A stretch of 64,000 bases of DNA from a virus (taxonomy: Duplodnaviria; Caudoviricetes): positions 1 through 64,000 of IMG/VR virus record IMGVR_UViG_3300012979_000032. One strand, written 5' to 3'. Position numbers and translations under genes: made by a program. The notes beneath the pieces are model-generated. The model was not told where the DNA came from. It did no database searches and worked only from the letters and a program-made list of their open reading frames with translations. Positions 1 through 64,000 of the stretch are shown here, one piece after another (the first letter of the stretch is position 1; each line of letters begins with the position of its first letter).

Positions 1-180
1 ACTATTATTATAGTAAGAATAATTATATCTAGTATAGTAACTATAATTAGTTCTTGTACCGCTAGTATTATAATATGAATAGTTATATCTAGTATAATAT
101 CCATAGTTAGTTCTTGTTCCACTAGTACTATAGTAAGAATAATTATATCTAGTATAATATCCATAATTAGTTCTATTTGC
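1..180 (-). repeat. 60-bp (20-aa) coding tandem repeat, consensus GTRTNYGYYTRYNYSYYNTS, >=3 copies
   Basis: Lines 1, 61 and 121 align at 60-nt period with mostly synonymous differences. Confidence 0.9.
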
Positions 181-2346
181 ATACCTAGTGTAATAAGAAT
201 AATATCCTCTTGTATATGGGCTATATCTAGCCGCATTCCAACGAGCTGCACGATAACTGTATCTATAATAACCAGTAACATAAGAGTGTCTAGTAGTACC
301 ATCATATCTTCTAGCACGATAGCTATAAGTGTAATAGCTAGAGACGTAAGAAGGATATGTAACTCCATCGTATCTTCTAGCACGATAACTATAAGTGTAA
401 TAACTAGAGACGTAAGAAGGATAGGTAGCTCCATCGTATCGAAGAGATCTATAACTATAAGTATAGTAACTAGAAACATAGGAAGGATAGGTTACTCCAT
501 CATATCTCAAAGATCTATAACTATAAGTGTAATAACTTGATACATAAGAAGGATAAGTTAATCCATCATATCTCAAAGACCTATAACTATAAGTGTAGTA
601 GCTAGAGACGTAAGATGGATAAGTTAATCCATCATATCTCAATTGACGATAACTATAAGTATAGTAACTAGAAATATATGAACCATAAGATGCTCCATCA
701 TATCTCCATGTTATATATGTATAAGTATAATAACTAGATACATAATAACCATAACTCGCTCCCTCATATCTTAACTAATTATAACTATAAGTATAATAAC
801 TAGAAATATATGATGGATATGAGAAATATTCAAACCTAACTTGGTTATAATTATAAACATAATAACTCGATACGTACGCAGGACGAGAATAATACTCAAA
901 ACGTAATTGATTATAACTATAAGTATAAGAACCTGCGATGTATCTCCAATCATATGCTAAACCATCATATCTTAATGCTCTATAGGTATATCCATAATAA
1001 CCTGAAATATAAGATCCAACTCTTGAACCTTCGCTGCGAGCAACTCGATAAGAATATGGAATATATCCTGCAATATATAGTTGGTAACCTTCATTAGTTC
1101 TACTATACGGACGCAAATAATAAAAATATGAGACAATAACTTGGTATGTATATGTTCGGTAATAAACGTATGCTGGAGAAGTATAATAAGTAGTATATCT
1201 TGAATAATCTAAATAATATTTATAATAATAATGTCCAGTATGATCTGCATAATATGATCCTAGATAATGAGCATAGGTAGATGCTCGATCAATATAATTA
1301 TAACTATATCGCGAAGCATACCAATATCCAGCCATAGTTTGCCCCATCCAATTATCCCAGACATACATATAATAATTCAAATAAGAAAATTTTGAAGCCG
1401 TATATGTATAATAATATGCATATCCCCAATGACGATTATAAAGATATGAAGGAATCCTTACATATACATAAGACTATGCATCTGAATTATACATACTCAT
1501 ATAATAAGCATATAACCAACGATATCCACTAATATATCTATAACTTCTATAGTGAGCATGCGGACCTGTTATATAATAGGCAGTATAACTATATTGATAA
1601 TATGTATAATAATTATATGCTTCTCGATCTCTTCGGTATCCCGTCTGCGGCGATGAAGGTATGTTTTCCTATCTATAAGCATAAGTCCTATAATAACTAG
1701 ATACATAATTATAATAGGAATATGTAGTTGAATATTGATATTTATATCCATAAAAATAACCGTTAGCGTATTGGTTACTTGGAGTATAGCGCGGCGCAGA
1801 AGCTGCAACTCTCGTATCAGTTGAACTTACTGCAACTTTGATATTACCAGCTTGTCGGTCTCCAACGGGCACAAGAGGAACTTGACCTGTTTTTGTACTT
1901 GATACATTGACTTTTAATTTTTGCTGACCTTCAACAGATTCATAAATAGGATGCTCTTTTACTGAAGTGCCATCAAAAATTTTTAATGTACCGATTTGAT
2001 TTCCACCACGAAATATAATGCTATACACAGCACTATAATCAACGCCACCAACTTTCGCACCAAGAGAGGAGGCAATAAATGGATCATATCGGACACAAAT
2101 TCGATAATAAATTTCTTTGGCATCAGTACCTAAATCTGTAAAAATGCCTTTTAAATCACCAGATTGAACAGAAGAAATTACTCTGCCCAAAGACTTCCAT
2201 GAAGAATCTGCCACATATTTATATTGGATTTCATAAGAAGTCTAATGGGAATTATAAATTGAATCTGTATTTTCCCAAGTGACTGGAATTGAAGATTGGG
2301 TGCGGTCAATCTGTCCTGTTCGTGGACTTAATATATTAATTGCCAT
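1..2346 (-). CDS. Tyr/Ser/Arg-rich tandem-repeat protein with FN3-like N-terminus (partial, >=782 aa, runs off left edge; code 15)
   Basis: ATG at 2346 after GAGAGGG RBS. Frame is open to position 1 except TAGs at 2242, 1669, 1474 and 775. Joins track ORFs 1669..2214 and 775..1380. N-terminus VTWENTDS..(Q)TSYEIQYKY..SSW resembles an FN3 strand pattern. The distal ~590 aa are about 30% Tyr. Confidence 0.85.
245..1000 (-). repeat. 66-bp (22-aa) coding tandem repeat, consensus YVSSYYTYSYRSLRYDGxTYPS, about 10-11 copies, degenerate at the ends
   Basis: Manual translation shows the repeating unit. The DNA copies differ mainly at wobble positions. Confidence 0.9.
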
Positions 2347-2380
2347 ATTTTACCCTCTCTTTCTCAACTTTCATAATTAT

Positions 2381-2409
2381 ATTGTAGCAAAAAATTTAAC
2401 AAAAGTCAA
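2381..2409 (-). promoter_or_regulatory. sigmaA/sigma70-type promoter TTGACT-17-TACAAT with extended -10 TG
   Basis: -35 at 2409-2404, 17-nt spacer, TGn, -10 at 2386-2381. It lies 35 nt upstream of the ATG at 2346. Confidence 0.75.
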
Positions 2410-3206
2410 GTTGAAATCCAAATATGACCAGCGATAGAAGAAGTATAAGTGGATGGTTTTACTTCAAGAATAATACTACCTGAAACCTGGCCACCTTGAA
2501 TATAATCACCAGTTAAAGTTTTACCGACAATATTATTCCATCTATAACTACTTGTACCCAAATTAAACTTATCTGTCGCTCCTGGGATAGCACCCGTAGA
2601 ATTAACTACTAAACCACTACTTCCAAGAGTAGCAGAACTGCCTGTACAAAATGCCAATGAACCATTTGCTGGAGCTAATAAATAATTATAGCCAGTGCTA
2701 GCAAATTTAATACTTGGAGTCCCCGTTGTATTAACCATTAGAGCATTTGTATTTAAATTTCCGCTTGTATCAACATAAACCGTATCATGAGAATAGGTCT
2801 AAGCAGTCGTTGCTTGGCTAGTAGCGCCCACTAAGAATATTTTACTACTTGTATTAGTGGATCCAGCACTCTTTTTAGCTAAAGCAAGTTCATCTGCTAA
2901 TCCATCGATATTACTGATAATATGATTATGGCTATCATCTTTTACCTGTAAATCAATATCTGAGATGTCTCTAGCGCCATCAAAGCTAAAACTGCCCTCA
3001 ACATCTCCCGAATCAAAAGAAATGGTAATGGACTTTTTCCATTTCGTTGCTTCATCTGCATATTTGTTAATTTTTAAACGAGATGTTGAGTCATAATCAA
3101 CGAAAAAGTCAGCAGCATCGTCTCCCGTTTTCTTTACATATGCCCAACCTTCAGTTTTTACCGCAGGAAGGTTGCCGGCACCTTTTAAAATTTTAAATAA
3201 AGCCAT
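2406..3206 (-). CDS. Tail fibre-like / minor tail protein (266 aa; code 15)
   Basis: Joins 2799..3221 and 2406..2738 across one TAG (GATSQATTA-Q-TYSHDTVYVD). C-terminal NLGTSSYRWNNI motif is typical of fibre proteins. Ends in TGA. Confidence 0.7.
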
Positions 3207-3247
3207 ATTATAAAACCTCACTTTCTAAGCTTTTGGTTTTCAATTAC

Positions 3248-3340: not shown

Positions 3341-4027
3341 TTAAATATCAATCCAATAGATGTTCCAACGTTCATCTTGTGAAATTTCATTCATTTTCGC
3401 AATGAGCTATTCATAAGCCTATGGAATATTATTTCCCATAGTAGAGAAGCTAATAAAACCTTTTTTATCTAGTTCCTCTAAAGTTGAACCCATCATTTCA
3501 TCAACGGCTTTCACAAAAGCAGTCTCATTAAAATCATTACCCTCTAAAATTTTACTTTTCGCAGGTTGAGTGTTTAAAACATAAGAGAATTCAGAGTTAT
3601 TGTATGGCGAAATTTGGAAAAATTTTAAAGAATAAGTAATAATTCCTGCCTAGGCGGTTGCTAAGCCTTCAATCAGCCAAGGAACAATAATACGGTCTTC
3701 CCTAGATAAAGTTTCTTTATCAGTAAAAGGAACCGCGAACAAGCCGCTTTTCTGATTGCGACCATTTTTATCAGCACTGACAAACTCAACTACACAATTC
3801 ATAGTAGATAAATCTACATTATCGTGGAAACGGTCTAAAACAAAATAGACCGTTTCCGCTCTGTGGTCAGTTGCCACACTTAAAAATTCTGGAGCCGTAA
3901 TTGATCTGGTATGCAAATCTACACTAATCATTTGCTCAGAACTAGGTAACAATAGCGCCGTTGTTGGAGGATTCTGGTCTTGAATTTTCCACAGCAGTTT
4001 TGCATATTCAGCTGAATTTGTGACCAT
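3341..4027 (-). CDS. BppU-like baseplate/upper tail protein, short paralog (228 aa; code 15)
   Basis: Track ORF 3650..4027 extends through 3 TAGs to TAA at 3341. Motif VDLHTRSITAPEFLSVATDHRAETVYFVLDRF..VDL. Confidence 0.6.
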
Positions 4028-4047: not shown

Positions 4048-6315
4048 TTATTGATCGTTGCGGTTGAAAATCATGAATGGAGAGCACATTACTTCAACAT
4101 CTTCGTTATAGGTATTGGTGATGATACAGAAGTAAATACCGTTCTTTTCAGGAATAAACTCATTTGTAGTAGCACCAACCTGGAGCAAGTCAGCAGGCCA
4201 ATTAATGGATCCCTTTTCATCAGGCTCATAAACACCCTTCATAGCTTTTACAGCGTCTTCTCTATCAACAGAAAGATCCTTTCCTTCTTCTTGATTCCAG
4301 ACATACTGATACCATTCATAAGTAAACTTATCCATATATCTTTCATCAACGAGGTCAGGGGTAACCATTAAGCCCTTCAAAGAACCATCTTCAGCGTTAT
4401 ACTGAATAGCAGTCTGAAGATTTGGCTTAGCATCATCGGCAATGTTAAGATCAGTAACAGCAGCGATTTCGGTGCCGTAAGCATCCTGACCACTAATAGT
4501 TACAGAGAACTTAGAAGGCGGCATGGTGATACGATAAGGCTCAGAAATAACCTCTTCACTTGCGGAGTTATTCAAATGACCAACGATACCACACTTATAA
4601 TATCCTTCACGAGTAGCGATAATATCCTTAGTTGCGGCAAAGCCATCATCAGTCCATTCTTCAGCCTTTAATTCTTCAGCAGTAGACTTAACATTAGGAT
4701 TAAAATACCACTTGTAGCTAGCCCATTCCTGAGAGCCATCGAAAGGATAAAGAGGATCTTTCTTCTCATTATATTCTACGAAAGATGGAGGTAAGATATC
4801 TTCATCTAATTCAGTACCAAAATCATCCATACCAGCAGTTAAGGTAACTTTATAGAGATGATCTTCAGGGTCCTCTTGCAATTTCTTAGCAGGACTTTCA
4901 ACATGAACCTTCTTAGGCTTTACTGGAGGGAAGACCAAAATGAATTCGGACTTAACTTGCTTTTCATTAGCACCAGCATTAACTTGAGCTACAAACTGAT
5001 AAATACCAACAGAAGTAATTGTCGCAGTGAAGTCGATACGATAAACAGGAGCAGCATCATCTTGCATAGCAAGGATTTCGCTCAAAGAAAGTACCTCGTA
5101 GCCTTCAACTCCGCCTTCTGGAGCAGCAATTTTATTATAATAAATGATGCCAGGGATGCTTTCTACGCCGAGCTCCTCTGCCTTATCATTACGGGCGATG
5201 ATTTCTGCCTTAGCATCTGCAATAGCAATCTCTTCATACTGAGGCCAAGCAGTCTCTAACATGAAATTTTCATCATATGCTTTGCGCTCTTCATCAGTCA
5301 TTTGAGCATATTCGTCTTCACGAAGAACTTCACGGATAGCTCCATCTGCAAAATACTTATACTTAGACCAGAAAGAACCAAGAGTGAGACCGTCACCGTC
5401 AACATAAACACCAGCAGATACATTTACGCTGCCAGTTGGATTCTCTGGATCAGTAGAAATATATACAACAGTTGCTAAAGGTGCGCCTTCTGGACGAGTG
5501 ATACCATCGCCAGCATAATCTCCGATATCTTCGCCAATGTAGAAAATAACAGGAGTACCAGGAGTACCATGATTAGCATGCTCACTATTCTTAGCACGAG
5601 CCTTAATAACATCAATGCTGTCATCCTTCATAATATAATCCTTTTTATTCAGGATATCTTCCAATAGGATGTCAATGTCCATATTAACCTTGATGGTCTG
5701 GACTAAGGTGGATAAGCTGAAAGTAATACCGGAAGTGCCACTAGTATCTTCAGCTCTATAGAAACGAACAGCAAACTTAACGTTACCGTCCTTGGGGGTT
5801 ACTTTAGAGCTTACTGGCCAACCGAAAACGATCTTACCAGGGATAAGATCAACATCTTTGCCGTAAGGACGAGAATAACCTTTTTGTCCGTCTGCATTAA
5901 CCCATTCAATAATAATATCTTGTTCATTCAAGTCAGTAGCATCGTAGTATCTATCAACTTCAAAGAATACGATTTCAGCAACGTTATCGCCACGAACGCC
6001 AATACCATTTTTCTTAAAGGCTTCTGGGACAGTAATAGTTCTTGTATTAAGATCAATCTTAAAATTCTCTTCATCAAGAGGAAGTTTAGTAAACTTTAGC
6101 TCATTTTTATCTACATCGATAGCAGTTAAATGCTTCATGTAGCTAAAATACTCAGCCAAGTTTGTAATGGTAAATTCTGTCGGCTTTTCCTGATAACCTA
6201 AAGTAGTAAGCTGCTCATGAGTAAGAGAATCAAAATATTCTTTTAATCCCTTGACAGCTTCCTTATATAGGACAGTATAGTCATTGACATATTGACCCTT
6301 AACATAAGTAATCAT
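4048..6315 (-). CDS. BppU-like N-terminal domain protein with Ig-like C-terminal modules (755 aa, no TAG)
   Basis: Intact ORF. IDLNTRTITVPE..GVRGDNVAEIVFFEVDRYY..DL motif. C-terminal Y-x-WY...G-x-Y-x-C patterns are typical of Ig-like folds. Confidence 0.65.
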   Translation of the reverse strand: MITYVKGQYVNDYTVLYKEAVKGLKEYFDSLTHEQLTTLGYQEKPTEFTITNLAEYFSYMKHLTAIDVDKNELKFTKLPLDEENFKIDLNTRTITVPEAFKKNGIGVRGDNVAEIVFFEVDRYYDATDLNEQDIIIEWVNADGQKGYSRPYGKDVDLIPGKIVFGWPVSSKVTPKDGNVKFAVRFYRAEDTSGTSGITFSLSTLVQTIKVNMDIDILLEDILNKKDYIMKDDSIDVIKARAKNSEHANHGTPGTPVIFYIGEDIGDYAGDGITRPEGAPLATVVYISTDPENPTGSVNVSAGVYVDGDGLTLGSFWSKYKYFADGAIREVLREDEYAQMTDEERKAYDENFMLETAWPQYEEIAIADAKAEIIARNDKAEELGVESIPGIIYYNKIAAPEGGVEGYEVLSLSEILAMQDDAAPVYRIDFTATITSVGIYQFVAQVNAGANEKQVKSEFILVFPPVKPKKVHVESPAKKLQEDPEDHLYKVTLTAGMDDFGTELDEDILPPSFVEYNEKKDPLYPFDGSQEWASYKWYFNPNVKSTAEELKAEEWTDDGFAATKDIIATREGYYKCGIVGHLNNSASEEVISEPYRITMPPSKFSVTISGQDAYGTEIAAVTDLNIADDAKPNLQTAIQYNAEDGSLKGLMVTPDLVDERYMDKFTYEWYQYVWNQEEGKDLSVDREDAVKAMKGVYEPDEKGSINWPADLLQVGATTNEFIPEKNGIYFCIITNTYNEDVEVMCSPFMIFNRNDQ

Positions 6316-6635: not shown

Positions 6636-9600
6636 TTAGCCTTGAGTAAGAATTCCATCGCAATTATAAGTGTAATCATTTGGAATTCTGGTAAGTGAAC
6701 GTAGGCGCTGTTTGATTTCTTCTTCCTGATTAGGATCATTATAATAGAAAATAATGCTAGTAAAACCACCAGTATTTTTATTATTTATGAATGCATTAGC
6801 AGACAAATCAATGATTCTAGTAGGATCTCCTTGGCCACCAAAGACTAGGCGACTAAAGGCAGGCTTAGCATAAGCGAAAGCAGCATCGCCGATATTAGTA
6901 ACTGTACCTGGAATAGCAATTTCTTCTAATCCACCGATCATGGAATTAAATGCATTCTGTCCAATTATCTGCAATCCTTTTGGCAGTTTTAAAGACTTAA
7001 GAGCTGTCTGATAGAAAGCATACAATTGAATACTGGTAACAGTTGCTGGGAACTCAAAATACTCGAGAGAAGTACATTTACCGAAAGCGCTACTATAGGC
7101 GTCAATACCAGTAATAACTTCTAACTATGCGCCACGCTCCCAGAAAACATGAGTAAGAGCAGACTGGCCGTAGAAATCACGAACCGCAAGAATTAATCTG
7201 CCTTTTGGATCTCTAGCTGGTAACGTAAGTTTTCCAGCAAAACTTACTCCAGGAGCAGGACCAATGCTTGCGCCTTCCCCGAAATCAGTGTAGCTGAACA
7301 AGCTATGGTTAGCTACATTATCATAAACACTTACTCGCTTATAGCAAGCATAGAATTTATAATTCTTAACTGCTCTTAATTGAGAGAAGTCAACTAATTT
7401 CGCTTCTTGGACATCATTAACAACACAAACGCTAGAGTCTTCTGTCCATCCTAAGAATCCATAAACCTCTTCTAACTCTAAGGAATCATCTGAATAAGAA
7501 GGAATTACCTTAGAATTTTCAAGGGTATAGCCATAAAGGATTGGGAAAACATCAACAAGATGTTCATCAGTATCTCCACCGCTATAGAATCTCATTTCAT
7601 AAGGATGCTTTTCGAAGAGAGCATAGAAAGTATAATCTGTACCCAACAAGGCTGGTTTAGCATTTTCCCAAGCCTCATCTTGCTCTTCAGCAGTTGCTTT
7701 AGCATTACTGATTAAATCTTTCGTCTCTAAAGAAGCACTCCAACCTAAGAAATCATAATTTGGTTTTTCAGGCTTATACTTTCTGTATGGGTTTTCAAAC
7801 CAACTATCTCCCGCGATTTTTTGAATACTTAGTTCTTCAGTTTCGCCATCGCTTACATAACTATAAGTTCCTAAGTAATTTCCATCATCGTCGAAATCAG
7901 GTAAAATGAATTTACCAGAAGTGGCTTTATTGACCTTAGCACAGAAAATATTGAGTTTCGGGAAATTCTTGATGATTTCATTCTTAATTGTTAATTCATC
8001 AATAGCATCAGCATTATTAACGTAAATCGTACCACTTAAATCAGGAACTGCGCTATTTTCACTAGGTCCAACTAGCAATGGCTCAGAAATAAACTCTAAG
8101 AGCATGTTAATGTCAGTAATAACATTATCATTCTTAGAATCATAAGCCTCATCAAGCACATAAATTTCACCATTAGCAACTTCCAAATCGAATGTTGCAA
8201 TATTATACTCATAATCTTCTAAGCCGTAATGTCCATTATCTTTCTTATAAGTGCGGCCAGGATCATACTTATCATCTTTAATTAACTGAATATATGGAGA
8301 CCATTTAACATCAGTTAATTTAATCTTGGTATAAGCAGAAGTATTTCTGAGACGGTTTTTATAATACTTTGTAACTAACTTATAGCTATCATAGCCAAAG
8401 TAGTCGCCAGTAATATTAAACTGCGCAATAGAAGTAACTTCTTCAGTGTCAGTGCCCTGAAGGTCAGTTAAACCTTTTACGAACAAGCCTGGCTCAGCAA
8501 TGATTTCACCATTGGCGCTTTCCTTTGTAGGAGTAGTATAAGAAGTTAGAATCTTATTAAGCAATCTTGCTTCAACCAATTCAAGTTTAGTTACTGTTGG
8601 AGGCAAATAGAGGGTATTAAGTGCTACGCCAGGAGCAAAAGTAACATCAGTTAAATTGGAACCAGTAGCACGGAAATTCTCTAACTTCTCACTAGCTGAG
8701 AGGTCTAGAGAAGTAGAACCATTATTCGCAGTATTAATAGTAATATTACAGAAGTTCATTTCTTTGAGAAGGGGCAATCCATTCGCAGAGAAAGAAGGTG
8801 GGTTCATTTTATTGTTATACCATCTAATAGTTTCACCATTTTCAGTTACAAGATTGTTTTCATTATCGGTCATGAGTGCATCGTGACCTAGTTTCAAACG
8901 AGTTAGCTTATTTGCGTCACCCTCAATTTTGAATTCAGTCCAATACATTTTACTTAAGTCGCCAAGATCTTTCATCTGGTCAATACCATAAACATACAAT
9001 AACTGTTCCTTGTAGTTATCACTAGTCTTGAAACCAGCTTCGATGGAATCAATATTAAATCTCAATGGAGTACCAGAGAATTTCTTAGATGGCCAGTTCT
9101 CATTATCTCCGCCGAAGGTGACATAAGAGTCATGAACTGGAGTTACAGTCATCCAGTATTCAGCGTCGAATTCATGAGTTTTAATAGTTTCAGCGCTATC
9201 AGCCCAATAAGAGCCATCTCTTGGATCGACCCAATGGTCAGAGATGTTACTATTGTTAGCCTGTACACGTCCCCAGAGACGTTGAGCGCCTCCACGAGCA
9301 AAATTACCTACATTCAACCAAGAGTCAATATAAGTAATACGATTAGACAAGAACTGACGACGAGACAAGGATCTGTCGCCTTGCAAAGCATACAAGTAGT
9401 CCGTACTTTCTTGCACAAACTAACCACTACCATTAATACGTCCAGTAGTACCATAAAGCTCAGAATCAGGAGAAACAGTTTCAGAACTACCTCTCTTATT
9501 ATAAATTGTTAAGAATTTATAATACTCATCTAAGTTCAAAGCAATCAATGGGCGCTGACCAGTCATAGCGTAGTTCTTAGCGCGAACATTTTTATTTACT

Positions 9601-17050: not shown

Positions 17051-17099
17051 ATAAATCATCCTCCTTCTTTTAATATTAAAAAATTATAAATATAAGTTA

Positions 17100-49727: not shown

Positions 49728-49763
49728 ATAATTATCTCCTTTCATCTCCACTCTGATATTTAT

Positions 49764-49792
49764 ATTATATCAGAAAAATTTTCTTTTGTCAA
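49764..49792 (-). promoter_or_regulatory. Perfect consensus sigmaA promoter TTGACA-17-TATAAT with extended -10 TG
   Basis: -35 at 49792-49787, -10 at 49769-49764. Confidence 0.85.
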
Positions 49793-54755: not shown

Positions 54756-55344
54756 TGTTGCCAGTCCTTAAAATAGACCAGTTAGAACGATAAATTCCAT
54801 CGTCACCTAACTTACGTCTTTTATATAATCTTTGCATATGGAATGATTCTCTATGAGCTTCATTTAATAAGCTTAACAACTTAGATAAATGGTTAGCTTG
54901 TGAAGTCATTTTAAAATCAGATCCAGAATATTTCATACGGGTATTTTCAATAGAAGAAACTTGACGTTGAATCCAACCGCACTTCATAAGAAGCGCAAGA
55001 ATATTAATTTCTTCAGAAGTCAATTCAACATTAAATGAAGATAATTCAACTAAAACATCGGGAACGCCATCAATATTGGGGTCATCCTCAAATCCACTAT
55101 TCCAGATAATACCAATAACAAAATCGCCATCAGTGACTTCATCTTCTGGAATTACAGCAGTCTCAATTGTATAATCAGTGAGACATTTTCTAGGAAATTC
55201 AAAACCAGGAATAGCATCTATTAGAAGTCTTTGCAAATCCTTAATGGTATCCTGAGGAGTTAACTCCATGTACATATCATCAGTAATTTTTTCGAGGAAA
55301 CGATTGTAAATGGTAGAAAACTTAGTTCCAGTTTTCTGCTCCAT
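54742..55344 (-). CDS. Head-tail adaptor-like protein (200 aa, no TAG)
   Basis: Intact ORF. TKFSTIYNRFL, LTSEEINILA and SQANHLSKL motifs. Located downstream of the capsid gene. Confidence 0.6.
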   Translation of the reverse strand: MEQKTGTKFSTIYNRFLEKITDDMYMELTPQDTIKDLQRLLIDAIPGFEFPRKCLTDYTIETAVIPEDEVTDGDFVIGIIWNSGFEDDPNIDGVPDVLVELSSFNVELTSEEINILALLMKCGWIQRQVSSIENTRMKYSGSDFKMTSQANHLSKLLSLLNEAHRESFHMQRLYKRRKLGDDGIYRSNWSILRTGNNEPS

Positions 55345-55357
55345 TTAAGTCCCTCCC

Positions 55358-55948
55358 TTATTCGTTTTCCTGAGCGGGCTTATCCTTTACTACTACCTTA
55401 TAATTAGGAGCAGTTCTACGGCCAGTCTGAGCAGCAGGCTTTACGCGACGCTCAGCGGGAGCCGCAGACTCGGTAGCAGCTGCCTTTTCCTCAGCCTTTT
55501 CAGCCTGAAGATTGGCAACAGCCTTATCTACATCAAAGCCAGTCTTTTCCAAAAGAGCCTTACGCTTATTATAGTCTTCCAAAGGAAGAGATACTGACAT
55601 AGTCTTAATCAAATCAATAACACCCATTGGGGCAAAATCCAAAGCATCCAAGAAGGCATCAAGAGAACCATGAGTCAGCAAATCACGAATCTGAGTTTCA
55701 GACATGTCGTATTCAACTTCTCTACGAACATTAAGATTATTAGTAACGGCTTCATCTACAATCTGTAGGAACTCTTCAAGGAGAGCATGGCCGCCGGGCT
55801 GATAAGTCAGCTTCTCAAGCTCGCCAAATGGGATCTTCTTAGTTTCACCAGGCTGGAATTCACGACGTAGATTAGTTTCCGGAATACGATAAACTACCAC
55901 GCTAGAACTTCTGTTTTTAACATTATACATAGTATCAGATGTAATCAT
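55358..55948 (-). CDS. Hypothetical head-associated protein (196 aa, no TAG)
   Basis: AAGGAG RBS favours the ATG at 55948. Intact ORF directly after the major capsid gene. Confidence 0.7.
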   Translation of the reverse strand: MITSDTMYNVKNRSSSVVVYRIPETNLRREFQPGETKKIPFGELEKLTYQPGGHALLEEFLQIVDEAVTNNLNVRREVEYDMSETQIRDLLTHGSLDAFLDALDFAPMGVIDLIKTMSVSLPLEDYNKRKALLEKTGFDVDKAVANLQAEKAEEKAAATESAAPAERRVKPAAQTGRRTAPNYKVVVKDKPAQENE

Positions 55949-55974
55949 AATTTCAAATCTCCTTTGTCTCATTT

Positions 55975-56021: not shown

Positions 56022-57134
56022 TTACTGAATTACGCCAGAAAGACGTCCATCATAAGTGGCAACCTTGCCGGTAATGCCATCAAGCTCCCAAGTAGCCATC
56101 TTGCCAAGTAGAGAAGTATCTACATAAGCACAGACGTTGTTAGCGAGCATGCAAACTACGCCAACCTTCTTGTAAACCTGAATCTCACGAGAACGATCAT
56201 AACCAACATAGTCATCAACAATGGTGCCACCCTCGAAAGCAATCTTAACAGGCTTTCCATCAGCACCAGTTGGGATAACCCAAGCATAGCCAGGATCAAT
56301 TACCTTGCGGGTATTGGTCTCGTCATCGAAGGACTGCTCCAAGATAACAACCTTGGTGCCCTTGTACTGAGCCAAGCGACCAGTGTTCCAGAGCTCGGTC
56401 TTCATGGCCTCGGTGTAGCGCCAAGCTTCCTGAGGAATCATGCGAACAGCGAACTCATAAGTGCAATAAATGGTAGGAGTACCATAAGCAGAAGCGATCA
56501 TAATCAAACGATCCATAGCAGCCTCATCGAAACCAGCGCAAGCAACGCGGTTGGCAGGAGGAAGCTGATTTACAGAAGCCTTCAAAGCAGCGGCAACTTC
56601 CTTAGCGATTAGCTCGTCCATACCTTCCATAACAATCTTGGTGACCTCAGCGAAATCGACGCGTCCATCAAGGAACTCTTCGAATCCGATCTGAGCAGCG
56701 CCACCGATTGCGCTGGTACGTACTTCAAAGCTCTCGCTCTCGGAAGGACCGAGCTTGAATACTTCGTAGATGCCAGCCAAGCCAACGCGAGTAATGAACT
56801 GCTTAGCACGCTGACGAGTATTGTTTAGAGGACGACGGAAAACAGGCTTGTCGCCCTGAGCAAAGGTCTTAACCTCAGCGTATTGGTCATAACGCTGCAT
56901 GATCTTCTTGGGGAGAATTTCATCAAGAGTCTCCTCGATCATGGAATAAATCAAATTCTTATTCTCACGGAATAGAGAATAAGTTCCAGCAAGCTCATTG
57001 AGTTCCTTACGGAGGGTCTCATTCATAGCCTCATAGGTAAGGTTCTTGCCTTCAAAACTATAGGAAACAGGAGCAGAAGGATCAGCCTTGGCGACCTGCT
57101 TCATTAAAGCAACCAAATTAACTCTATCTAACAT
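56022..57134 (-). CDS. Major capsid protein (370 aa, no TAG)
   Basis: Intact ORF with strong codon bias. Size and position (after protease and accessory genes, followed by a terminator) fit. GRLAQYKGTKVVIL resembles the HK97 P-domain pattern. Confidence 0.75.
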   Translation of the reverse strand: MLDRVNLVALMKQVAKADPSAPVSYSFEGKNLTYEAMNETLRKELNELAGTYSLFRENKNLIYSMIEETLDEILPKKIMQRYDQYAEVKTFAQGDKPVFRRPLNNTRQRAKQFITRVGLAGIYEVFKLGPSESESFEVRTSAIGGAAQIGFEEFLDGRVDFAEVTKIVMEGMDELIAKEVAAALKASVNQLPPANRVACAGFDEAAMDRLIMIASAYGTPTIYCTYEFAVRMIPQEAWRYTEAMKTELWNTGRLAQYKGTKVVILEQSFDDETNTRKVIDPGYAWVIPTGADGKPVKIAFEGGTIVDDYVGYDRSREIQVYKKVGVVCMLANNVCAYVDTSLLGKMATWELDGITGKVATYDGRLSGVIQ

Positions 57135-57153: not shown

Positions 57154-58107
57154 TTACTTAATTCTCATAATCTTAACGCCCTTTTGGTTGTCAGGCATAG
57201 TGTAAACACGAACAACCTGCCATTCCATGTCGCCGGTACCAACTTCGAGGATACCCTTAGCGCCAGGAGTTAGAACGTCGCCAACCTTGAGTTCGGTGGC
57301 ATTGATCATATTAGTAGTCATAATATCGCCGACATTGGTCTTGAATACACGAGGAACCATAGCGGTACCCTTTGGCATTCTCTTCTCGCGATAAATACCA
57401 AGACGCTTCCAAGGATCATTGGTGAAGCCCCACTCATAGTAGTCTTCAACATCCTTAGTTACATCGTCATACTCATAGGTTACAGGAATCTGAACCTTGG
57501 TCTGACCATTCTCATCGATCTCGTACTCTTCACCATTGTAGGTAAACTTACCATCAACGATATTGCAACGAACTTCGCCGATATCGATGGTCTGGAACTC
57601 AGTAGCACCAGTCTCAGCATTGCGGGTAGGATTGTTAGCAACAAAGTAACGAGAAATAGTCATAGAAGTGTTGCCCTTGTCATCCTTACCATTCAAATAC
57701 ATACCATTATGATACTCAAGCTCAGGAGTCTCCCAATCATAAGGGGTATAAATACGAGCCTGATAGTCATCCTTAATCATAGCAAATTCGCAGTCCCACT
57801 GCTTGCTTCCATCAGGATGGTTGCGATAGAGCTTGATCTCATTATAAACAAGCATCCATTCGCCCTTGCCTTCGAAATTGACTTCGCCGATACCATTATC
57901 GTTAGCAGCATAGTCATACTTTACGAACTGGCCATTTTCCAAAATATCAATGTCAGCCTTGGCAGGTAGCTGAGCATAAATCTGAGCGGTTCTTTGAGCA
58001 GAAAGGTGATTTGGCTCAACCTGACCATAACCGAACTCTACATAACTAGCCTGAGACTTCAAACCAATGCGCTCTTGACTAGCCTTCAAAAAGTCCTTGA
58101 AATTCAT
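57154..58107 (-). CDS. Capsid decoration/auxiliary protein (317 aa, no TAG)
   Basis: Intact ORF with strong codon bias, between protease and capsid genes. GYGQVEPNHLS..ILENGQF and PRVFKTNVGDIMTTN motifs. Confidence 0.6.
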   Translation of the reverse strand: MNFKDFLKASQERIGLKSQASYVEFGYGQVEPNHLSAQRTAQIYAQLPAKADIDILENGQFVKYDYAANDNGIGEVNFEGKGEWMLVYNEIKLYRNHPDGSKQWDCEFAMIKDDYQARIYTPYDWETPELEYHNGMYLNGKDDKGNTSMTISRYFVANNPTRNAETGATEFQTIDIGEVRCNIVDGKFTYNGEEYEIDENGQTKVQIPVTYEYDDVTKDVEDYYEWGFTNDPWKRLGIYREKRMPKGTAMVPRVFKTNVGDIMTTNMINATELKVGDVLTPGAKGILEVGTGDMEWQVVRVYTMPDNQKGVKIMRIK

Positions 58108-58128: not shown

Positions 58129-59739
58129 TTAGTTTAATGATTTCGCAGTGTCCAAGACAGCCAGCACCCAAGCTGGGGTGTCTTCGGTCTCATGGTTATT
58201 TAAACTATAAACCATAGGATCATGTTCATCCTTATCATCATCAAGGTTGAAATTCACCTTATTGCGAACGCAAATAACAGAAAGCTTTGCTTCGATATCA
58301 TCCAAAGAATAAGTATCAATGTTAGCAACAACATCAGCCTTATCTTCGTCAGATAACATATAGAATCTCTCAATCATAGACTGCTTTTCCTGGCGCTCTA
58401 CGGAGAGCTTGAACTCAGTCAAAGTAGCAACTTGCTGCTCTAACTCAGTCTTAGTATTAGAAAGGGCATCAAAGTCAGCCTGAAGCTGAGCGAACTTAGA
58501 ACTTAGCTCTTCGTACTCTTCAAGAGAGAAGTGCTTCTTCTTTTTCTTCTCATCCTCATCATCTTCCTCTTTATCCTCTTTATCATCAGCGTCTTTCTTG
58601 TCATCAGCTGGGGCATCTTCTTTCTTTTCGTCTTTATCTTCCCCATCTGTCTTATCTTCAGAATTAGAATCATCAGATTGGTCCTTTTTGTCCTCATCTT
58701 CTTTTTCTTCTTCCTTTTTCTTTTCCTGCTTCTTATACTCGGTCTCAAAGGCTTCAACATCAGCTAAAGCGAACTGAGGCTCACTTGCAGGAACATAAGT
58801 CTTGGTTACTTCTACAAGCTCACTGACAGGCGCCAATCCATTGGTTTCATCAACAGAAAAATCGAGTCTGAAGTACTTCATAGAAGTGCGATCTGCGAGA
58901 ATGGCAAATTTCTGGCCACCCTCCTCAAACACACCATCAATGGAATACTTAGAGCACCATCTCTCCTCACCAGGATAGGTCTTTTCAATATAGCTGTAGA
59001 GAGCACTCCATAGAGAGTCACCAATTTCTACTGCATATCTAGTAAACACTTGTGCTCCTCCTTCATTTTTTAATAATTCTTTGAGCTCATCCATCATTGA
59101 GCGCATTTGCTCCATAAAACTAGGCTCAAATGAGAATGTCACTTCCGGCTTTGTAATGCTTGAGCCCTCGAAACAGGGTTCGCATTCTTCACCTAAAATA
59201 CAAAGTTTAGATATAACACCTTCGTTAATAATGAAAAATTTGGGTTTTCCATTATCATCTTTCGACCAGGTTGCATCTAATGTATTTTCATCTAATTCCA
59301 TAGAATGATTATTTCCTTGGGTTAGGATACGAGCGCATTCTGGGTACTGCCCGGTCCATAAATAACCTTCAGTGCATAAATATTCTCGTTCAACTTTATC
59401 GTCATCTAAAAACCATTGGAACCACACTCTGGCGTTTTCGCCAACAAAGCCATATGGCCGTGTAGTATCTTTGAAAGTCCATTTACCATTAGAAATGTCG
59501 ATTGAACGATTATGCTCCTCAAAATCCTCTTTACTTTCGTTATAAAACCCAACGATAGGATTACCAGGTAAACTATTGGCAAGCTGCTTAGCCGTTTCTC
59601 TGGTAATCACACTTCTATTACGATTGGGTTCATCACTTACATAACACACCTTGATCTAGCATTTAGAAATTAGAGGATTCAAAGGAGTAATTTCTAGGAT
59701 CTCACATGGAGGTCCAAGAGGGACACTCTTATGTCTCAT
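58129..59739 (-). CDS. Prohead protease-scaffold fusion (536 aa; code 15)
   Basis: GGAGG RBS and ATG at 59739. Single TAG at codon 28 (NPLISKC-Q-IKVCYV). NRNRSVIT, EEHN, HSMEL and CILGEECEPCFEGS motifs. Acidic/Lys-rich coiled-coil C-terminus. Confidence 0.75.
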
Positions 59740-59751: not shown

Positions 59752-61404
59752 TTACTTCATTGATTCTAAATTCTTAATAGTCTTTTCACTCTTTTGACCA
59801 TCTTCCTTTGCTGGTCGACCGGCCGCCTTCGCCTCGCCGCCATTGGAAGAAGCATTCCCTGATTTATCTTGAGTTTTAGACTAGATGGATTGTTGATTTC
59901 CACCCTTGCCAGTTAAAGTTTGTAATCCTTCGGCATTCATAGTACTACTCTACATAGGTGGTAGCATAATCTCACTGAGATGCAAGAACTCATTTTCAAA
60001 CTTCGCAGTATGAATAATTGAGCTTTGTGAATGTCCAAGAGCAATCTGAGGTAACATCTTAGAGTAACCAATTTGAACTTGTTCTTTGTACATCTTAGAA
60101 AGTTCTCTGTAATTATATTGAGTGGTTTCAAGCATATAGAATTTAAAAACCATCTTACGCTTGCTTCCACTCTTTTTCTATGTTATTCTATCAAATAACA
60201 TATGGAACTAGAATAGCAAATCTCGAATGGCACTTTCGTCATCAAGGATGGAATATTGCAAAGATAAGTTACCATCTGAGTTAAACAAATTCTTTGCAAC
60301 ACCGAAAGAGTTATAAACAGAACGTTCAACTTTTTCCAAATCATCCTTGGTGGTTGCCGTATTAGAATCAGCAATATCTTCAACTGCAACATCAGCGAAA
60401 GTGGTTAATACATCGACGCCAACCGCACGAGATAACATTTCAACCGCATTATTATGAATATCACGAGCTTCATCTACGTCAAAGATTAAGTCACCATTCT
60501 TATCACGAGGTAGCTTCTGAATTAAAATCTTCAAAAGCTGTTGCATTTGTTTGCGTCTATCCAAATCTTGAGCTTCATCTAAATCTAATAGCTGAGGAAT
60601 CGCAGAGATAAATAATGGCATTTCGTCATTATATAAATTAAACTTAACAGTACAATTAGGATCAAGCACATACCAACAACCGTGGCAGTTATCTCGATTC
60701 ATTAAATCATCTGATTGAAGTTTTCCACTCTTATACTTTACATATCCCTCTTGGAAATCTTTGGGGAACATTTTTAGGACTCGCATTCTATTCTGCGTAT
60801 CTCTGAACTGTTCATCAAAGAACTTCATATTAAATTCGACTACTGGATTCGTGCCTTGGTACCAACGAGAACGGCAATATCTTACAGGAAGCTGTTGAAT
60901 CAAAACACCATTAGGTGATTCAATCAAATAACCATAATAAACGCCATTCTTAATGACCTCTAAGGCAATCTGGCCGCAAAGTCTCTTAATGTGACTATTG
61001 TCCAGATAATCTAAAATGGATTCGAACTCTTCTAATACTTTCTCTTCCTTTATTTTCTTATCCTTTACCTCTGGAACTACGTACCAATCATAACGATAAA
61101 GATAAGCAAAATAATTACATACTCGAGAATAAATGCCACTAGTTCGATAGAAGTAATTTGAGATATCTCTTAATACAGGCAAGTTCTTTTCGTATAAAGC
61201 TTTCATAATAAATGCCTTATTACTATACTGGCGATTAACGGATTTATGGTTTCCCAATGCCATTACCGCATCATCTAAGACTTTAGTGCCGACTTTAATT
61301 TTCCCATAATCTAAATGAGGCGGAACTTCCATCTAAGGCTAACGAGGATTATAGCCAGTAATATTAAAGGATTTAGAATGAATCTCTTGCTGACGATCGC
61401 TCAA
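59752..61404 (-). CDS. Portal protein (550 aa; code 15)
   Basis: AGGAGGTGA RBS and TTG at 61404. Joins 60208..61332 and 59950..60153. Ends with GRPAKED..SEKT and TAA. Located after the terminase gene. Confidence 0.75.
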
Positions 61405-61424: not shown

Positions 61425-61790
61425 TTACCAATTTTTCCCATAAGCTTTCTCCATGATATAGTCATAGTTAATGAGGTATTCATCAGTATATGGGATTTCT
61501 ATCAATTTAAAATCGTGCAAAGCGCAGAATCTTCGTTTTTTATTATCATTAAATTGCTGCTAATAAAAACCTTTCTTTCCGCCAAACTTCGCACTTGGCT
61601 CATAATGCTATTTGCCTTGATATTCAATTATAAAATCAATATTGTTATCATCATCAAACACAACGAAGTCAAAACGAAGAGGTCTTCCATTCGGGCTAGA
61701 GAGTCCTTCAAAGCTATATTCCATTTTGAAATTAAGCTCAGCTTCTGTTAAAATTTCTTCAATTTTTACTTCTCCTCTTGACGCACGCAC
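61425..61790 (-). CDS. Small PD-(D/E)xK (Vsr/DUF559-like) endonuclease (121 aa; code 15)
   Basis: SRGE..IEEIL, LRFDFVVF, IIEYQGK(Q)HY and D..KRRFC..LIEIPY motifs. Two TAGs, ends TAA. Confidence 0.75.
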
Positions 61791-61807
61791 AAAAACCCCT
61801 CCTTTCG

Positions 61808-63535
61808 TTAATTATAAAAACGCCATTCTTTTGCGTTAAATTTCTTCTTCTTTTTGTTTGATTCTTCTTGTTTAATATAATATAATCCGTATTCAAAAGC
61901 AGAAAATTTATCCTTTTTAATACCTCTATTAGCTTGACGCAAAATGATGTTAACTCCTTCATTTTCTTCACGAAGGTTCATCATTTCCTCTCTTAATATG
62001 GAAGTTAGAGTAAATGGTTTTAAATATTCTGCCCTTTCCTCAGGTTTCATATTTTGACCAACTTTAGTACCGAGTAACTTAGTCTTAGCTACGCGCTCGT
62101 CAATCAAAAATTTAACCTTACCAGAAGACATCATAGACTGGGCATTAGCATGAGCTTCAGTATTGATCGGCGCATTTGCTTTGATAATGTACATAGCATC
62201 TTGTTCACACTCAGCACTACGATATTTTTTATACTCACCATCTTGATCGTTATAAACGCCAAAATCTGGGAAGAATTCATTTGTATCTGGATCAGTTTGC
62301 TTTTTAACCATGTAATCAACAAGTCCAATACCAAGACCATTTCCGTCGATAACCAATCTGCGAGCATTATATTTATAGAATAATTTCTTCAACCAAATAG
62401 CCTGCTCTTCAAAGTGTTCATCATTTTTAGTATAAATATTTACTAACTGGCAGATACAGGTTCCCTGCGGCTGTGGGGTGCATTTAAATACCATACACAC
62501 AGAATCGCATCCTTTACGACCAATATCAGCAGATAGAATATAAAAACTTTGTTTTCCGGCTCGGCCAGACTTCTCATATTCTGGCTATTTAAGAATTCTA
62601 TTTCGATCAAAAACCTCAGAATTGAAGAAAGCATCTTCTACAGTACCAGACCACTTAGACTCATATTCTCGCTCAAAAGCTACTTCATTGAAGGTACCGT
62701 CCATTTTTAAGTCCTTAATAAAGTTCTTATCCAAGAGCTTAACTAAAACTGGAATTCTATAAGTACCACCCATGACAATAGATTTTTCGGGCTTTACAAT
62801 TTGCCACACTAAGAACTGAATTAATTTGTCGTAAGGGAATGTATTTTTAAATCCTGCGGTGGTGATATAAAGTTGGCTCTTATTCAATTGCTCTTCTGGA
62901 TGAGTAGAGCCATCCATACACATACGAGAAATATTCATGGTGGGAATAATAACCTGAGATAGGATATCTCCATCAACGCCGACACACTCCTCAATAACTC
63001 CGGCATGACGACGCTTACCACGAGAACTCTCTCGCGCAGCAATGTTATCAAAATAAGATCCACTCTTAAATACGTATTTACAATAATCTTTACCTTCAAG
63101 AGTTTTACCTCTTGACCAGTCAATTTCTTTATTAAAAGCTGGAATGAGAGTACAAATTTCCTGTACTTTTTCTTTCATAATTCCAGCAGCCTGTTCCTTA
63201 CCACCAGAAGTAACGAACAGCTTACATTTTGGGTATAACACGCATCGGATCATCAAAACCATCATAGACAGAAAGGATTTTGAATAAGCACGTGGGAATA
63301 CCGCATACATATATTGGTGTCGCATAGCGGCACGTAAAAATACTCTTTGATAAAAATAAAATTTAAAGTTTTGCGGGTTGCCGCAAGTTAGCAAGAAATC
63401 TATAAACATATCAGGGTACTCACGCCAAAAAGCGATATATTCTCGCATCTGGGGAACAATCGCTTGAATGCGCTCTTCTGAAATACCAACTTTTTTTCGT
63501 TCTTTACTTAAATTAAGTAAGTCATCTAATGCCAT
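61808..63535 (-). CDS. terL: Terminase large subunit (575 aa; code 15)
   Basis: Walker A-like PRAYSKS, SSRGKRR, Walker B VIEE and ITTAG. Nuclease domain SADIGRKG, IDGNGLG and KDKFSA. The two track ORFs are joined by a single TAG at 62585. Confidence 0.9.
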
Positions 63536-63537
63536 AC

Positions 63538-64000
63538 TTAACTACCTTCTTTAATATGCCGCATAAGCTCTTCATCTGAAAGTTCTTCTTCCTCGATAAA
63601 CTCTCCGAAGTCTTCAAAGTCTTCATCTTTGAGTTCATCAAGATTTTCATATTCAAGCTCTTCTTCGACATCTTCGTCTTCTTCTTTAGATTCTTGCTCA
63701 ACCATTTGTTTAACCGCATTTTCAATTAAGTTACCGAGATTCATTTCATCAACAACAAGAGAGTGAGTATAATTCTTCAAGTCCATTAGAGTCTCATCTA
63801 CTCGATCATTTGGACCACCTGTATAATAACGAGGAATAAATCCTTCTTTCTCGCAAATTACAACTAATTCACCAATCGAATCAAGATATTCACCATTCTC
63901 GGCTTTGTTCTGAGCGGCGGTAAATTTACCAGATTTCATAAGTCCGTCATACATCTTTACCATTTTCTGCGCTGCATCAACATCGCCAATATCAAGAAGT
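63538..64000 (-). CDS. Protein upstream of terL with acidic C-terminus (partial; possibly terminase small subunit)
   Basis: Frame is open to the right edge and ends TAA 2 nt before the terL start. Confidence 0.55.
   Translation of the reverse strand, partial: LLDIGDVDAAQKMVKMYDGLMKSGKFTAAQNKAENGEYLDSIGELVVICEKEGFIPRYYTGGPNDRVDETLMDLKNYTHSLVVDEMNLGNLIENAVKQMVEQESKEEDEDVEEELEYENLDELKDEDFEDFGEFIEEEELSDEELMRHIKEGS

What the first reader, a model, noticed from the sequence alone, without database searches (positions are those of the whole stretch)
1..64000. Stop-codon reassignment: TAG encodes Gln (code 15), with internal repeat controls
Seen: every in-frame break checked in the fragmented genes is TAG, and all reconstructed genes end in TAA or TGA. 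Two repeat arrays give the amino acid directly. In the TMP, FIGTEG-TAG-TYT (42869-71) aligns with FIGTEG-CAA-TYT one 78-bp unit later (42791-93). In the Tyr-rich gene, YSYN-TAG-LR (775-77) aligns with YSYN-Q-LR and YNYN-Q-VR. TAG also sits at expected Gln positions (EYQGK-Q-HY, SKC-Q-IKV). Established: TAG-to-Gln recoding is known in gut phages such as Lak and some crAss-like groups. Inference: this is a recoded phage on a probably standard-code Firmicutes host, needing a suppressor tRNA encoded outside the window.
Basis: partly seen in the sequence, partly recalled or inferred. Interest (0 to 1): 0.8.

Follow-up and report, generated by a model that had tools for sequence, protein, structure and literature searches.

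The report
Phage late genes read TAG as glutamine
This is about half of a roughly 190-kb uncultured tailed phage that writes its virion genes with the stop codon TAG meaning glutamine and keeps its early genes free of TAG; the pattern is real and well supported, but it is already described for gut and rumen phages.

Summary
All window genes lie on the minus strand. Read with TAG as sense, 33 ORFs cover 98% of that strand, against 89 fragments and 74% under table 11. TGA-sense gives no gain.

The 31 late genes hold 187 in-frame TAGs, 178 of them in the window and 79 in a 4,550-aa tape measure. Every complete late gene ends in TAA or TGA.

Glutamine is supported by comparison, not only by the two repeat examples. 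At 31 TAG positions, 25 standard-code relatives carry Gln at 59%. That equals the rate at the phage's own CAA/CAG positions (background 4%). Log-likelihood is -57 for Gln and -98 for the next residue.

The contig is only 52% complete and has no tRNA, release-factor or GlnRS gene. All six recoded relatives with tRNA arrays carry one Gln-like tRNA(CUA). Synteny places that array just past the contig end.

The plus-strand early arm (47% GC) has no in-frame TAG in 49 genes.

This matches the published code-15, late-gene recoding model (Borges et al.; Phass-1 group). It is a new member of a known kind. This scan has noted TAG recoding on much other DNA, and on this genome's other window.

The parts
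35450..49102 (-). Tape measure protein gene, 4,550 aa, 79 in-frame TAG (31% of its Gln-type codons), stop TAA
   Evidence: ORF. TAG counts. PHROG tape-measure hits, E 9e-66. Homolog is one open 3,093-3,228-aa frame in five standard-code relatives. Repeat example verified.
1..2346 (-). Tyr-rich repeat protein gene, runs off the contig start, 4 TAG including 775-777
2406..3221 (-). Late gene, 271 aa, 1 TAG, stop TGA
3341..4027 (-). Late gene, 228 aa, 3 TAG
4048..6315 (-). Late gene, 755 aa, no TAG despite 21 Gln codons (P=0.005), CAG-rich
6636..14204 (-). 2,522-aa virion-module protein gene, 7 TAG (TAG-poor, P=0.006)
   Evidence: Alignments to four standard-code relatives cover 96-99% of the gene.
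14343..16073 (-). Late gene, 576 aa, 1 TAG
16100..17059 (-). Fibre-like gene, 319 aa, no TAG
17136..22367 (-). Tail-module gene, 1,743 aa, 12 TAG
22367..22783 (-). Late gene, 138 aa, 1 TAG (Gln in standard-code relatives)
22752..26348 (-). Tail protein gene, 1,198 aa, 12 TAG
26341..29106 (-). Tail-module gene, 921 aa, 11 TAG
29281..29676 (-). Late gene, 131 aa, 2 TAG
29705..35338 (-). Tail-module gene, 1,877 aa, 14 TAG
49206..49751 (-). Late gene, 181 aa, no TAG
49789..50841 (-). Late gene, 350 aa, 8 TAG, stop TGA
50925..51941 (-). Virion structural protein gene (phrog_2729), 338 aa, no TAG, all 9 Gln codons are CAG
51964..52695 (-). Late gene, 243 aa, 6 TAG. Four sit where Gln is the majority in 17-22 standard-code relatives (invariant at two).
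52697..53278 (-). Virion structural protein gene, 193 aa, 1 TAG
53297..54457 (-). Late gene, 386 aa, 4 TAG
54450..54755 (-). Late gene, 101 aa, 2 TAG, both at (near-)invariant Gln columns
54742..55972 (-). Two late genes (200 and 204 aa) with no TAG
56022..57134 (-). Probable major capsid gene (assigned by position and abundance-type codon usage; phrog_4088), 370 aa, 47% GC, no TAG, 12 of 13 Gln codons are CAG
57154..58107 (-). Head-module gene, 317 aa, no TAG
58129..59739 (-). Head-module gene, 536 aa, 1 TAG at 59656-58, where 24 of 25 standard-code relatives have Gln
59752..61404 (-). Portal gene, 550 aa, 6 TAG
   Evidence: phrog_2739, E 2e-77. Columns.
61425..61790 (-). Small gene, 121 aa, 2 TAG (61608-10 and one more). 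Gln in 25/25 and 24/25 standard-code relatives.
61808..63535 (-). Large terminase gene, 575 aa, 1 TAG (Gln in 19 of 25 relatives)
63538..64000 (-). 3' part of a 401-aa late gene that continues to contig position 64743. Its 3 TAGs lie beyond the window.

Best explanation
The window is the late (virion) arm of a large tailed phage that uses genetic code 15. In its late genes UAG is translated as glutamine instead of ending translation.

Shown here:
- TAG is the only stop codon found inside the late reading frames.
- TAG never ends a late gene.
- TAG sits where standard-code relatives have Gln, as often as the phage's own CAA/CAG codons do.

Inferred: It would have a tRNA-Gln-type acceptor end and be charged by the host's glutamine-charging pathway. 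It would lie in a tRNA array a few kb past the right end of this half-complete contig, as in recoded relatives.

The divergently transcribed early arm (plus strand, contig 65.9-92.9 kb, 47% GC) has no in-frame TAG and stops on TAA or TGA. It can therefore be read by an unmodified standard-code host. Full-length virion proteins can be made only after the suppressor is expressed. This is the published 'code switch gates late genes' model.

Within the late arm, TAG use falls as gene GC rises. The genes that look most highly expressed (capsid and its neighbours) avoid TAG altogether.
For: Coding density: 74% under table 11, 98% under TAG=Q, no gain for TGA.

Stop usage: 187 in-frame TAG in 21,442 late codons. 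TAG makes up 22% of Gln-type codons. Stops are TAA 26 and TGA 4.

Homolog columns, head region: at 31 TAG positions, 25 standard-code relatives have Gln 59%, equal to the 59% at the phage's 169 CAA/CAG positions. Background Gln is 4.2%. Log-likelihoods are Gln -57.0, His -97.8, Lys -97.9, Glu -106.6 (first version). Gln is the majority at 20 of the 31 positions and invariant at 8. The aligned Gln codons are mostly CAA (249, against 129 CAG), which is two changes away from TAG, so this is not mere mutational adjacency.

Homolog columns, whole late arm: at 85 TAG positions against four standard-code genomes, Gln is 39% versus 46% at the phage's own Gln positions. Log-likelihoods are Gln -198.9 and next -266.9.

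The tape-measure homolog is one uninterrupted frame in standard-code relatives.

Relatives: of the 81 related loci, 56 are recoded and 25 standard. In-frame TAA or TGA is at most 1 per locus. TAG matches Gln in nine separate recoded lineages.

Suppressor: one tRNA(CUA) in each of 6/6 recoded relatives with arrays, none among the 34 tRNAs of standard-code G006. All have U1 with a weak or mismatched 1:72 pair plus G73, and they align with the phages' tRNA-Gln genes.

Synteny: the array starts 1.4-9 kb past the homolog of the contig's last gene in 16/19 relatives.

Early arm: homologs are found only in plus-strand frames. Its 49 plus-strand genes have 0 in-frame TAG. The 48 complete ones stop at TGA 25, TAA 22 and TAG 1, and that one TAG is followed at once by TGA.

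Spearman correlation of gene GC against TAG share is -0.75, p=1.4e-5.
Against: Three recoded relatives that are 82-92% complete have no detectable tRNA at all. One of them lacks the array at the syntenic site (L198).

There is no protein-level evidence. Timing of expression (early versus late) is inferred from gene content and strand, not measured. The host and its genetic code are unknown. In the divergent tail genes many TAG positions fall in variable columns, where the residue cannot be read.
Confidence: 0.9

Rival explanations
1. TAG is read as Gln, but this phage carries no suppressor of its own. The reader would be supplied by the host (a resident suppressor tRNA or a natively recoded host), by a co-infecting phage, or by an unknown tRNA-independent read-through.
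For: No tRNA in the contig. Recoded relatives G001 (92% complete), G014 (87%) and G002 (82%) have no tRNA hit. Borges et al. found suppressors in only 35-40% of recoded phages.
Against: The contig is only 52% complete and ends about where relatives place their tRNA array. The window's own portal clade includes G011, which has an array with tRNA(CUA), and standard-code members with arrays. The complete absence of in-frame TAG from 49 early genes argues against a host that already reads TAG.
Confidence: 0.08
2. TAG encodes a residue other than Gln: Glu, Lys, pyrrolysine, Tyr, Trp, Ser, Leu or Ala. ARAGORN labels the relatives' CUA tRNAs 'Pyl', and three of them are 89-93 nt long, like class II tRNAs.
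For: The ARAGORN label and the long variable region. This scan has reported phages that read TAG as Ala or Glu, so Gln cannot be assumed.
Against: Column likelihoods reject all alternatives by at least 40 units. Glu is 5%, Lys 8% and Tyr about 0% at TAG columns. Lineages with long suppressors still show TAG matching Gln at the same rate as their own Gln codons. The acceptor ends are Gln-like, not Ser- or Leu-like.
Confidence: 0.02
3. TAG is a true stop. On this view the genes are decayed or fragmented, or the TAGs are sequencing or assembly errors.
For: Under table 11 the region looks like 89 fragments.
Against: All 187 internal stops are TAG and none is TAA or TGA. No late gene ends in TAG. 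The frames stay open for up to 4,550 codons. The residues flanking TAG are conserved with relatives. Fifty-six related loci from many samples show the same pattern.
Confidence: 0.01

Closest known systems
TAG-to-Gln (genetic code 15) recoded gut and rumen phages, as surveyed by Borges et al. (bioRxiv 10.1101/2021.08.26.457843): Lak, crAss-like, Agate, Sapphire, Garnet, Topaz
   Same: In-frame TAG aligned to Gln. Recoding concentrated in structural (late) genes. Early genes compatible with the standard code. Low GC and a TAA-dominated stop set. Phage suppressor tRNA(CUA) in relatives. Genetic code differing between close relatives. No phage aminoacyl-tRNA synthetase.
   Different: I could not test membership in any of their named clades, because their sequences were not at hand. 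No RF2 gene was found here or in five relatives, whereas RF2 is reported for a few Lak and Agate phages. Here the early and late arms also differ by 12 points of GC.
Phass-1 group (proposed Phassvirus; Babkin et al. 2023, PMC10607447; OQ749652.1, 136 kb, TAG in 41 ORFs, three suppressor tRNAs)
   Same: It is the nearest named phage by portal among GenBank phage records (37% identity over 94%, E 3e-89). It also comes from gut viromes, is also TAG-recoded, and also has suppressor tRNAs.
   Different: It is only distantly related. The window's family (52-68% portal identity, 81 loci) is a separate, larger-genome group (130-200 kb) with 18-39 tRNAs and a 3.1-4.6-kaa tape measure.
Proteomically validated code-15 crAss-like phages (Peters et al. 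2022, PMC9523058)
   Same: The same reassignment, there shown at the peptide level.
   Different: An unrelated phage order infecting Bacteroidota hosts. No proteomic data exist for this phage.
E. coli supE (glnV) amber suppressor: tRNA-Gln with anticodon CUG changed to CUA (recalled textbook knowledge)
   Same: The relatives' tRNA(CUA) genes have tRNA-Gln-type acceptor stems. One shares the acceptor stem of the standard-code relative's tRNA-Gln(CUG) except at position 66.
   Different: Here the suppressor is phage-borne and supports hundreds of sense TAGs. Three lineages add a 15-19-nt extra hairpin.

Membership tests
Code-15 (TAG=Gln) recoded phage | Conserved genes are interrupted only by in-frame TAG, never by TAA or TGA | tested here: met
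   187 TAG in 31 late ORFs. Alignments to relatives run through the TAGs. Relatives have at most 1 in-frame TAA or TGA per locus.
Code-15 (TAG=Gln) recoded phage | TAG columns align with Gln in homologs that use the standard code | tested here: met
   Gln 59% at TAG columns and 59% at the phage's own Gln columns, against a 4.2% background. Log-likelihood gap over 40. For 85 positions across the late arm the gap is 68.
Code-15 (TAG=Gln) recoded phage | TAG is not used as a terminator | tested here: met
   Late genes: TAA 26, TGA 4, TAG 0. Early genes: TGA 25, TAA 22, TAG 1, and that TAG is followed at once by TGA.
Code-15 (TAG=Gln) recoded phage | Phage-encoded suppressor tRNA with anticodon CUA (common but not universal: 35-40% of such phages per Borges et al.) | tested here: inconclusive
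   None in the 92.9-kb contig by ARAGORN or Rfam, but the contig is 52% complete. Present in 6/6 recoded relatives with arrays. The array is predicted to lie past the contig end.
Code-15 (TAG=Gln) recoded phage | Recoding concentrated in late (structural) genes, with early genes readable under the standard code | tested here: met
   Twenty-three of 31 late genes carry TAG. None of 49 plus-strand early genes does. The plus-strand coding of the early arm is shown by homologs.
Code-15 (TAG=Gln) recoded phage | Gln inserted at UAG, shown at the protein level | not testable with these tools
   Needs metaproteomics or an isolate.
Phass-1 group (proposed Phassvirus and its divergent relatives) | Placement inside the monophyletic group defined by Babkin et al. 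from hallmark proteins | tested here: inconclusive
   Only a pairwise portal match of 37% identity. No joint tree was built.
Agate clade of Borges et al. | Terminase phylogeny placing the phage with the Agate reference genomes | not tested
Genome size and rumen/gut-type sources are compatible.

The most novel reading that the evidence does not exclude
This phage, like three 82-92%-complete recoded relatives that show no tRNA gene at all, may carry no amber suppressor. TAG would then be read as Gln by something supplied in trans (host, co-infecting phage) or by a mechanism not yet described. Alternatively, its missing suppressor may be the unusual 'two-armed' kind seen in three relatives. That kind is a tRNA(CUA) whose variable region carries a mini-hairpin. 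The hairpin shows the UCUGA core of a tRNA-Gln(CUG) anticodon loop, possibly as a decoy for the glutamine-charging enzyme.
Probability: 0.15. Interest if true: 0.6.

Novelty: new member of a known kind. Interest (0 to 1): 0.3.

Why it matters
Practical value: under table 11 this phage is annotated as about 90 fragments, and its 4,550-aa tape measure, portal and terminase are missed or truncated. Reading TAG as Gln restores a normal virion module.

Scientific value: it adds a well-controlled case to a known phenomenon. The family holds 25 standard-code and 57 recoded members (56 loci plus the window). The portal tree needs at least 4-7 code changes, and the window's nearest relatives use the standard code. 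That makes the family a good natural series for studying how recoding is gained or lost, how TAG spreads with falling GC, and why abundant virion proteins stay TAG-free. None of this changes the current picture.

Tried and rejected
- Internal repeats as a systematic read-out of the amino acid: only 6 TAG positions fall in repeats and the aligned residues are mixed.
- Pfam on 33 different proteins: confident hits only for FolD and an HD domain, so profile-based Codetta-style inference was not possible. I used relatives instead.
- My first gene list for the right arm took minus-strand ORFs with in-frame TAGs at face value. Homology showed these are antisense shadows and that the real genes are on the plus strand.
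- Pyrrolysine, despite ARAGORN's label for CUA anticodons: rejected by the columns (Lys 8% against Gln 59%).
- Chimeric assembly as the cause of the 35%/47% GC break: rejected. The right arm is syntenic with G006 (172-194 kb, then 3-8 kb) and G004, and G004 shows the same GC step.
- Host identification through the phage FolD gene in bacterial genomes: no hit.
- Closer relatives exist.
- Sigma-factor identity of the first late gene: the PHROG hit is strong (3e-51). Pfam gave nothing and Foldseek gave nothing. VIA-align gave only Z 6.3-7.0 matches of residues 212-311 to sigma region-4 domains, within the noise range for helical proteins. Inconclusive.

Full report
**What the window is.**
The window is the first 64 kb of a single 92,914-bp IMG/VR virus record. 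CheckV rates the record 52% complete. Genes run off both ends. Every credible gene in the window is on the minus strand.

PHROG profiles identify a large terminase (61808-63535), a portal (59752-61404, E 2e-77), virion structural proteins and a tape measure (35450-49102, E 9e-66). Pfam was almost silent. This is the late, virion arm of a large tailed phage.

**Check of the observation.**
- TAG at 42869-71 and CAA at 42791-93 occupy the same place in two successive 26-aa units of the tape measure.
- TAG at 775-77 matches CAA at 907-09 and 841-43 in the Tyr-rich repeats.
- The SKC-q-IKV and EYQGK-q-HY sites are at 59656-58 and 61608-10.

Opening TAG raises the cover of the window by ORFs of at least 100 aa from 0.74 to 0.99. 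Opening TGA gives 0.76. On the minus strand alone, 89 fragments with a median of 140 aa become 33 ORFs with a median of 351 aa, covering 98%.

The 31 late genes (contig 1-65889) hold 187 in-frame TAGs in 21,442 codons. Of these, 178 are in the window and 79 are in the 4,550-aa tape measure. The 30 complete genes end in TAA (26) or TGA (4) and never in TAG.

The repeat 'controls' are weaker than stated. A systematic self-comparison found only six TAG positions inside repeats, with mixed partners.

**Which amino acid.**
A scan of IMG/VR with the portal protein returned 80 related loci at 52-66% identity, each with 10-kb flanks. One GenBank fragment was added.

Counting in-frame TAGs in the aligned genes splits them cleanly. 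Twenty-five loci have none. Fifty-six have 3-64 per roughly 4,700 aligned codons. In-frame TAA or TGA is at most 1 everywhere. The standard-code relatives can therefore be used to read the TAG columns.

At 31 TAG positions in well-aligned context, those relatives carry Gln at 59% (weighted per position). At the window phage's own 169 CAA/CAG positions they carry Gln at the same 59%. Background Gln is 4.2%.

I built empirical substitution profiles from the same alignments. The log-likelihood of the TAG columns is -57.0 for Gln, -97.8 for His, -97.9 for Lys and -106.6 for Glu (first version). Gln is the majority at 20 of the 31 positions and invariant at 8.

The aligned Gln codons are mostly CAA (249, against 129 CAG). 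CAA is two changes from TAG, so the match is not a by-product of the single CAG-to-TAG transition.

I then fetched the tail regions of four standard-code genomes. This extended the test to 85 TAG positions across the whole late arm. Gln is 39% there, against 46% at the phage's own Gln sites. Log-likelihoods are -198.9 for Gln and -266.9 for the next residue.

The tape-measure homolog is a single open frame of 3,093-3,228 aa with no stop in five standard-code relatives. The giant ORF is therefore not an artefact of reading through real stops.

**The rest of the contig.**
GC jumps from about 35% to about 47% near 66 kb. My first ORF lists there suggested minus-strand genes with TAGs. Homology says otherwise. 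The strong matches to relatives G006 and G004 are all in plus-strand frames without TAG, for example 60% identity at E 1.6e-89.

The arm holds 49 small plus-strand genes. They have no in-frame TAG. The 48 complete ones stop at TGA (25), TAA (22) and TAG (1), and that single TAG is followed at once by TGA. This arm is therefore readable under either code.

Out-of-frame TAG is also scarce on this strand. There are 44, against about 80 expected from codon shuffles.

The order of homologs in G006 and G004 matches the contig, and G004 shows the same GC step. The contig is therefore not a chimera.

Another (e1-5959386) describes a TAG-bearing Rep-like gene in the low-GC island at 88.7-89.4 kb. For that gene I saw only the ORF with 5 TAGs and weak winged-helix hits.

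**Pattern within the late arm.**
TAG supplies 22% of Gln-type codons overall. Its share falls with gene GC (Spearman -0.75, p=1.4e-5).

Eight late genes have no TAG and mostly prefer CAG. They include the probable capsid gene (56022-57134, 47% GC), its neighbour 57154-58107, and the structural genes 50925-51941 and 55358-55972. This fits two readings. One is avoidance of a less efficiently decoded codon in the most abundant proteins. The other is TAG arising from CAG under AT pressure. I cannot separate them.

**How TAG is read.**
The contig has no tRNA (ARAGORN; Rfam). It has no RF-1/RF-2 domain and no GlnRS/GluRS core. Five relatives, four of them recoded, also lack release-factor genes. Five recoded relatives lack synthetase genes.

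Relatives do carry large tRNA arrays.
- The standard-code genome G006 has 34 tRNAs. None has anticodon CUA, but it has Gln(UUG) and Gln(CUG).
- Each of the six recoded genomes with arrays (G004, G005, G011, G012, G013, G015) has exactly one tRNA(CUA).
- All six have U1 with a weak or mismatched 1:72 pair and G73. They align with the phages' tRNA-Gln genes. As I recall, these are acceptor-end identity marks of bacterial tRNA-Gln.
- TAG matches Gln at the lineage's own Gln rate in nine recoded lineages, whatever form the suppressor takes.

The homolog of the contig's last gene (91504-92913) is followed by a same-strand tRNA array in 16 of 19 relatives. The array starts 1.4-9 kb downstream.

I therefore infer that this phage's suppressor lies just beyond the contig end. 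This is inference, not observation. Three recoded relatives at 82-92% completeness show no tRNA at all.

**Evolution.**
On a portal tree of 82 rows, the code state needs at least 7 changes, and at least 4 are forced by well-supported branches. The window sits in a supported group of 25 rows, 16 standard and 9 recoded. Its nearest portals are standard-code (L001-L005, up to 68% identity).

**Comparison with what is known.**
Borges et al. (bioRxiv 10.1101/2021.08.26.457843) already report the following:
- TAG=Gln in many gut and rumen phage clades;
- recoding focused on structural and lysis genes;
- early genes readable under the standard code;
- low GC and TAA-rich stop sets;
- suppressor tRNAs in only 35-40% of such phages;
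- different codes among very close relatives.

Peters et al. (PMC9523058, abstract) showed code 15 by proteomics in crAss-like phages. The nearest named phage by portal is Phass-1 (37% identity), itself described as TAG-recoded with three suppressor tRNAs (PMC10607447).

This finding is therefore a new, well-documented member of a known kind. The scan has also recorded TAG recoding in many other genomes, including cases read as Ala or Glu. That is why the explicit rejection of Glu and other residues here matters.

**Limits.**
- There are no protein or expression data.
- The host is unknown. A search for bacterial FolD relatives found nothing.
- Closer relatives, with 84-91% identical FolD, exist on ENA/Logan contigs, several of 195-201 kb.
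- Gene starts are approximate.

Noticed in passing
L088:662-750 (-), L183:170-259 (+), L184:8104-8196 (-): In three recoded relatives (G005, G011, G012) the tRNA(CUA) is 89-93 nt long. A 15-19-nt insert in the variable region contains UCUGA, the core of a tRNA-Gln(CUG) anticodon loop, in what can be drawn as a 7-nt loop on a 2-3-bp stem. The rest aligns with tRNA-Gln. This resembles the 'two-headed' Gln suppressor that the scan noted on other DNA (e1-5495868). TAG still matches Gln in these lineages.
   Followed up: partly
Records behind L024, L032 and L041 (handles G001, G014, G002): Three clearly TAG-recoded relatives (176, 172 and 143 kb; 92%, 87% and 82% complete) have no tRNA hit at all. 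One lacks the array at the syntenic site (L198). How they read TAG is open.
   Followed up: partly
L184:1750-1821: The TAG-recoded relative G012 also carries a tRNA with anticodon UCA, which ARAGORN labels 'SeC'. This is a possible opal suppressor in a phage whose aligned genes show no in-frame TGA.
   Followed up: no
L082:1789-2889 (-), which is contig 64789-65889, just beyond the window: The first gene of the late strand (366 aa, 6 TAG) matches phrog_5767, annotated 'sigma factor', at E 3e-51. It ends in a CxxC...CxxC zinc ribbon. Three of its TAGs sit at Gln columns invariant in 24 standard-code relatives. If it is a late transcription factor, its own synthesis needs the code switch. The fold evidence is weak (sigma region-4-like, Z 6.3-7.0).
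   Followed up: partly
window 35450-49102: The tape measure is 4,550 aa here, against 3,093-3,228 aa in standard-code relatives. It contains 26-aa tandem units. By the usual rule of about 0.15 nm per residue (recalled), this would imply a very long tail, unless much of the protein is not length-determining.
   Followed up: partly
contig 65.9-92.9 kb (L082, L083): The early arm is 12 GC points richer than the late arm (47% against 35%). TAG is depleted on its coding strand in all three frames: 44 seen, about 80 expected from codon shuffles, about 310 from base composition over the three frames. The recoded relative G004 shows the same GC step.
   Followed up: partly
L083:5507-5512 (contig 83507-83512): The only early gene ending in TAG has TGA as the very next codon. 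This tandem stop terminates within one codon under either code.
   Followed up: yes
L082:2978-3874 (+), which is contig 65978-66874: A phage-borne FolD gene (methylene-THF dehydrogenase/cyclohydrolase) sits at the junction of the two arms. It is TAG-free. Homologs of 84-91% identity lie on metagenomic contigs, several of 195-201 kb, which are probably complete close relatives of this phage.
   Followed up: partly
window 4048-6315 and 6636-14204: These two large tail-module genes are significantly TAG-poor and CAG-rich compared with their neighbours (P about 0.005 each). They may have been acquired recently from a standard-code relative, or they may be under different expression constraints.
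   Followed up: no
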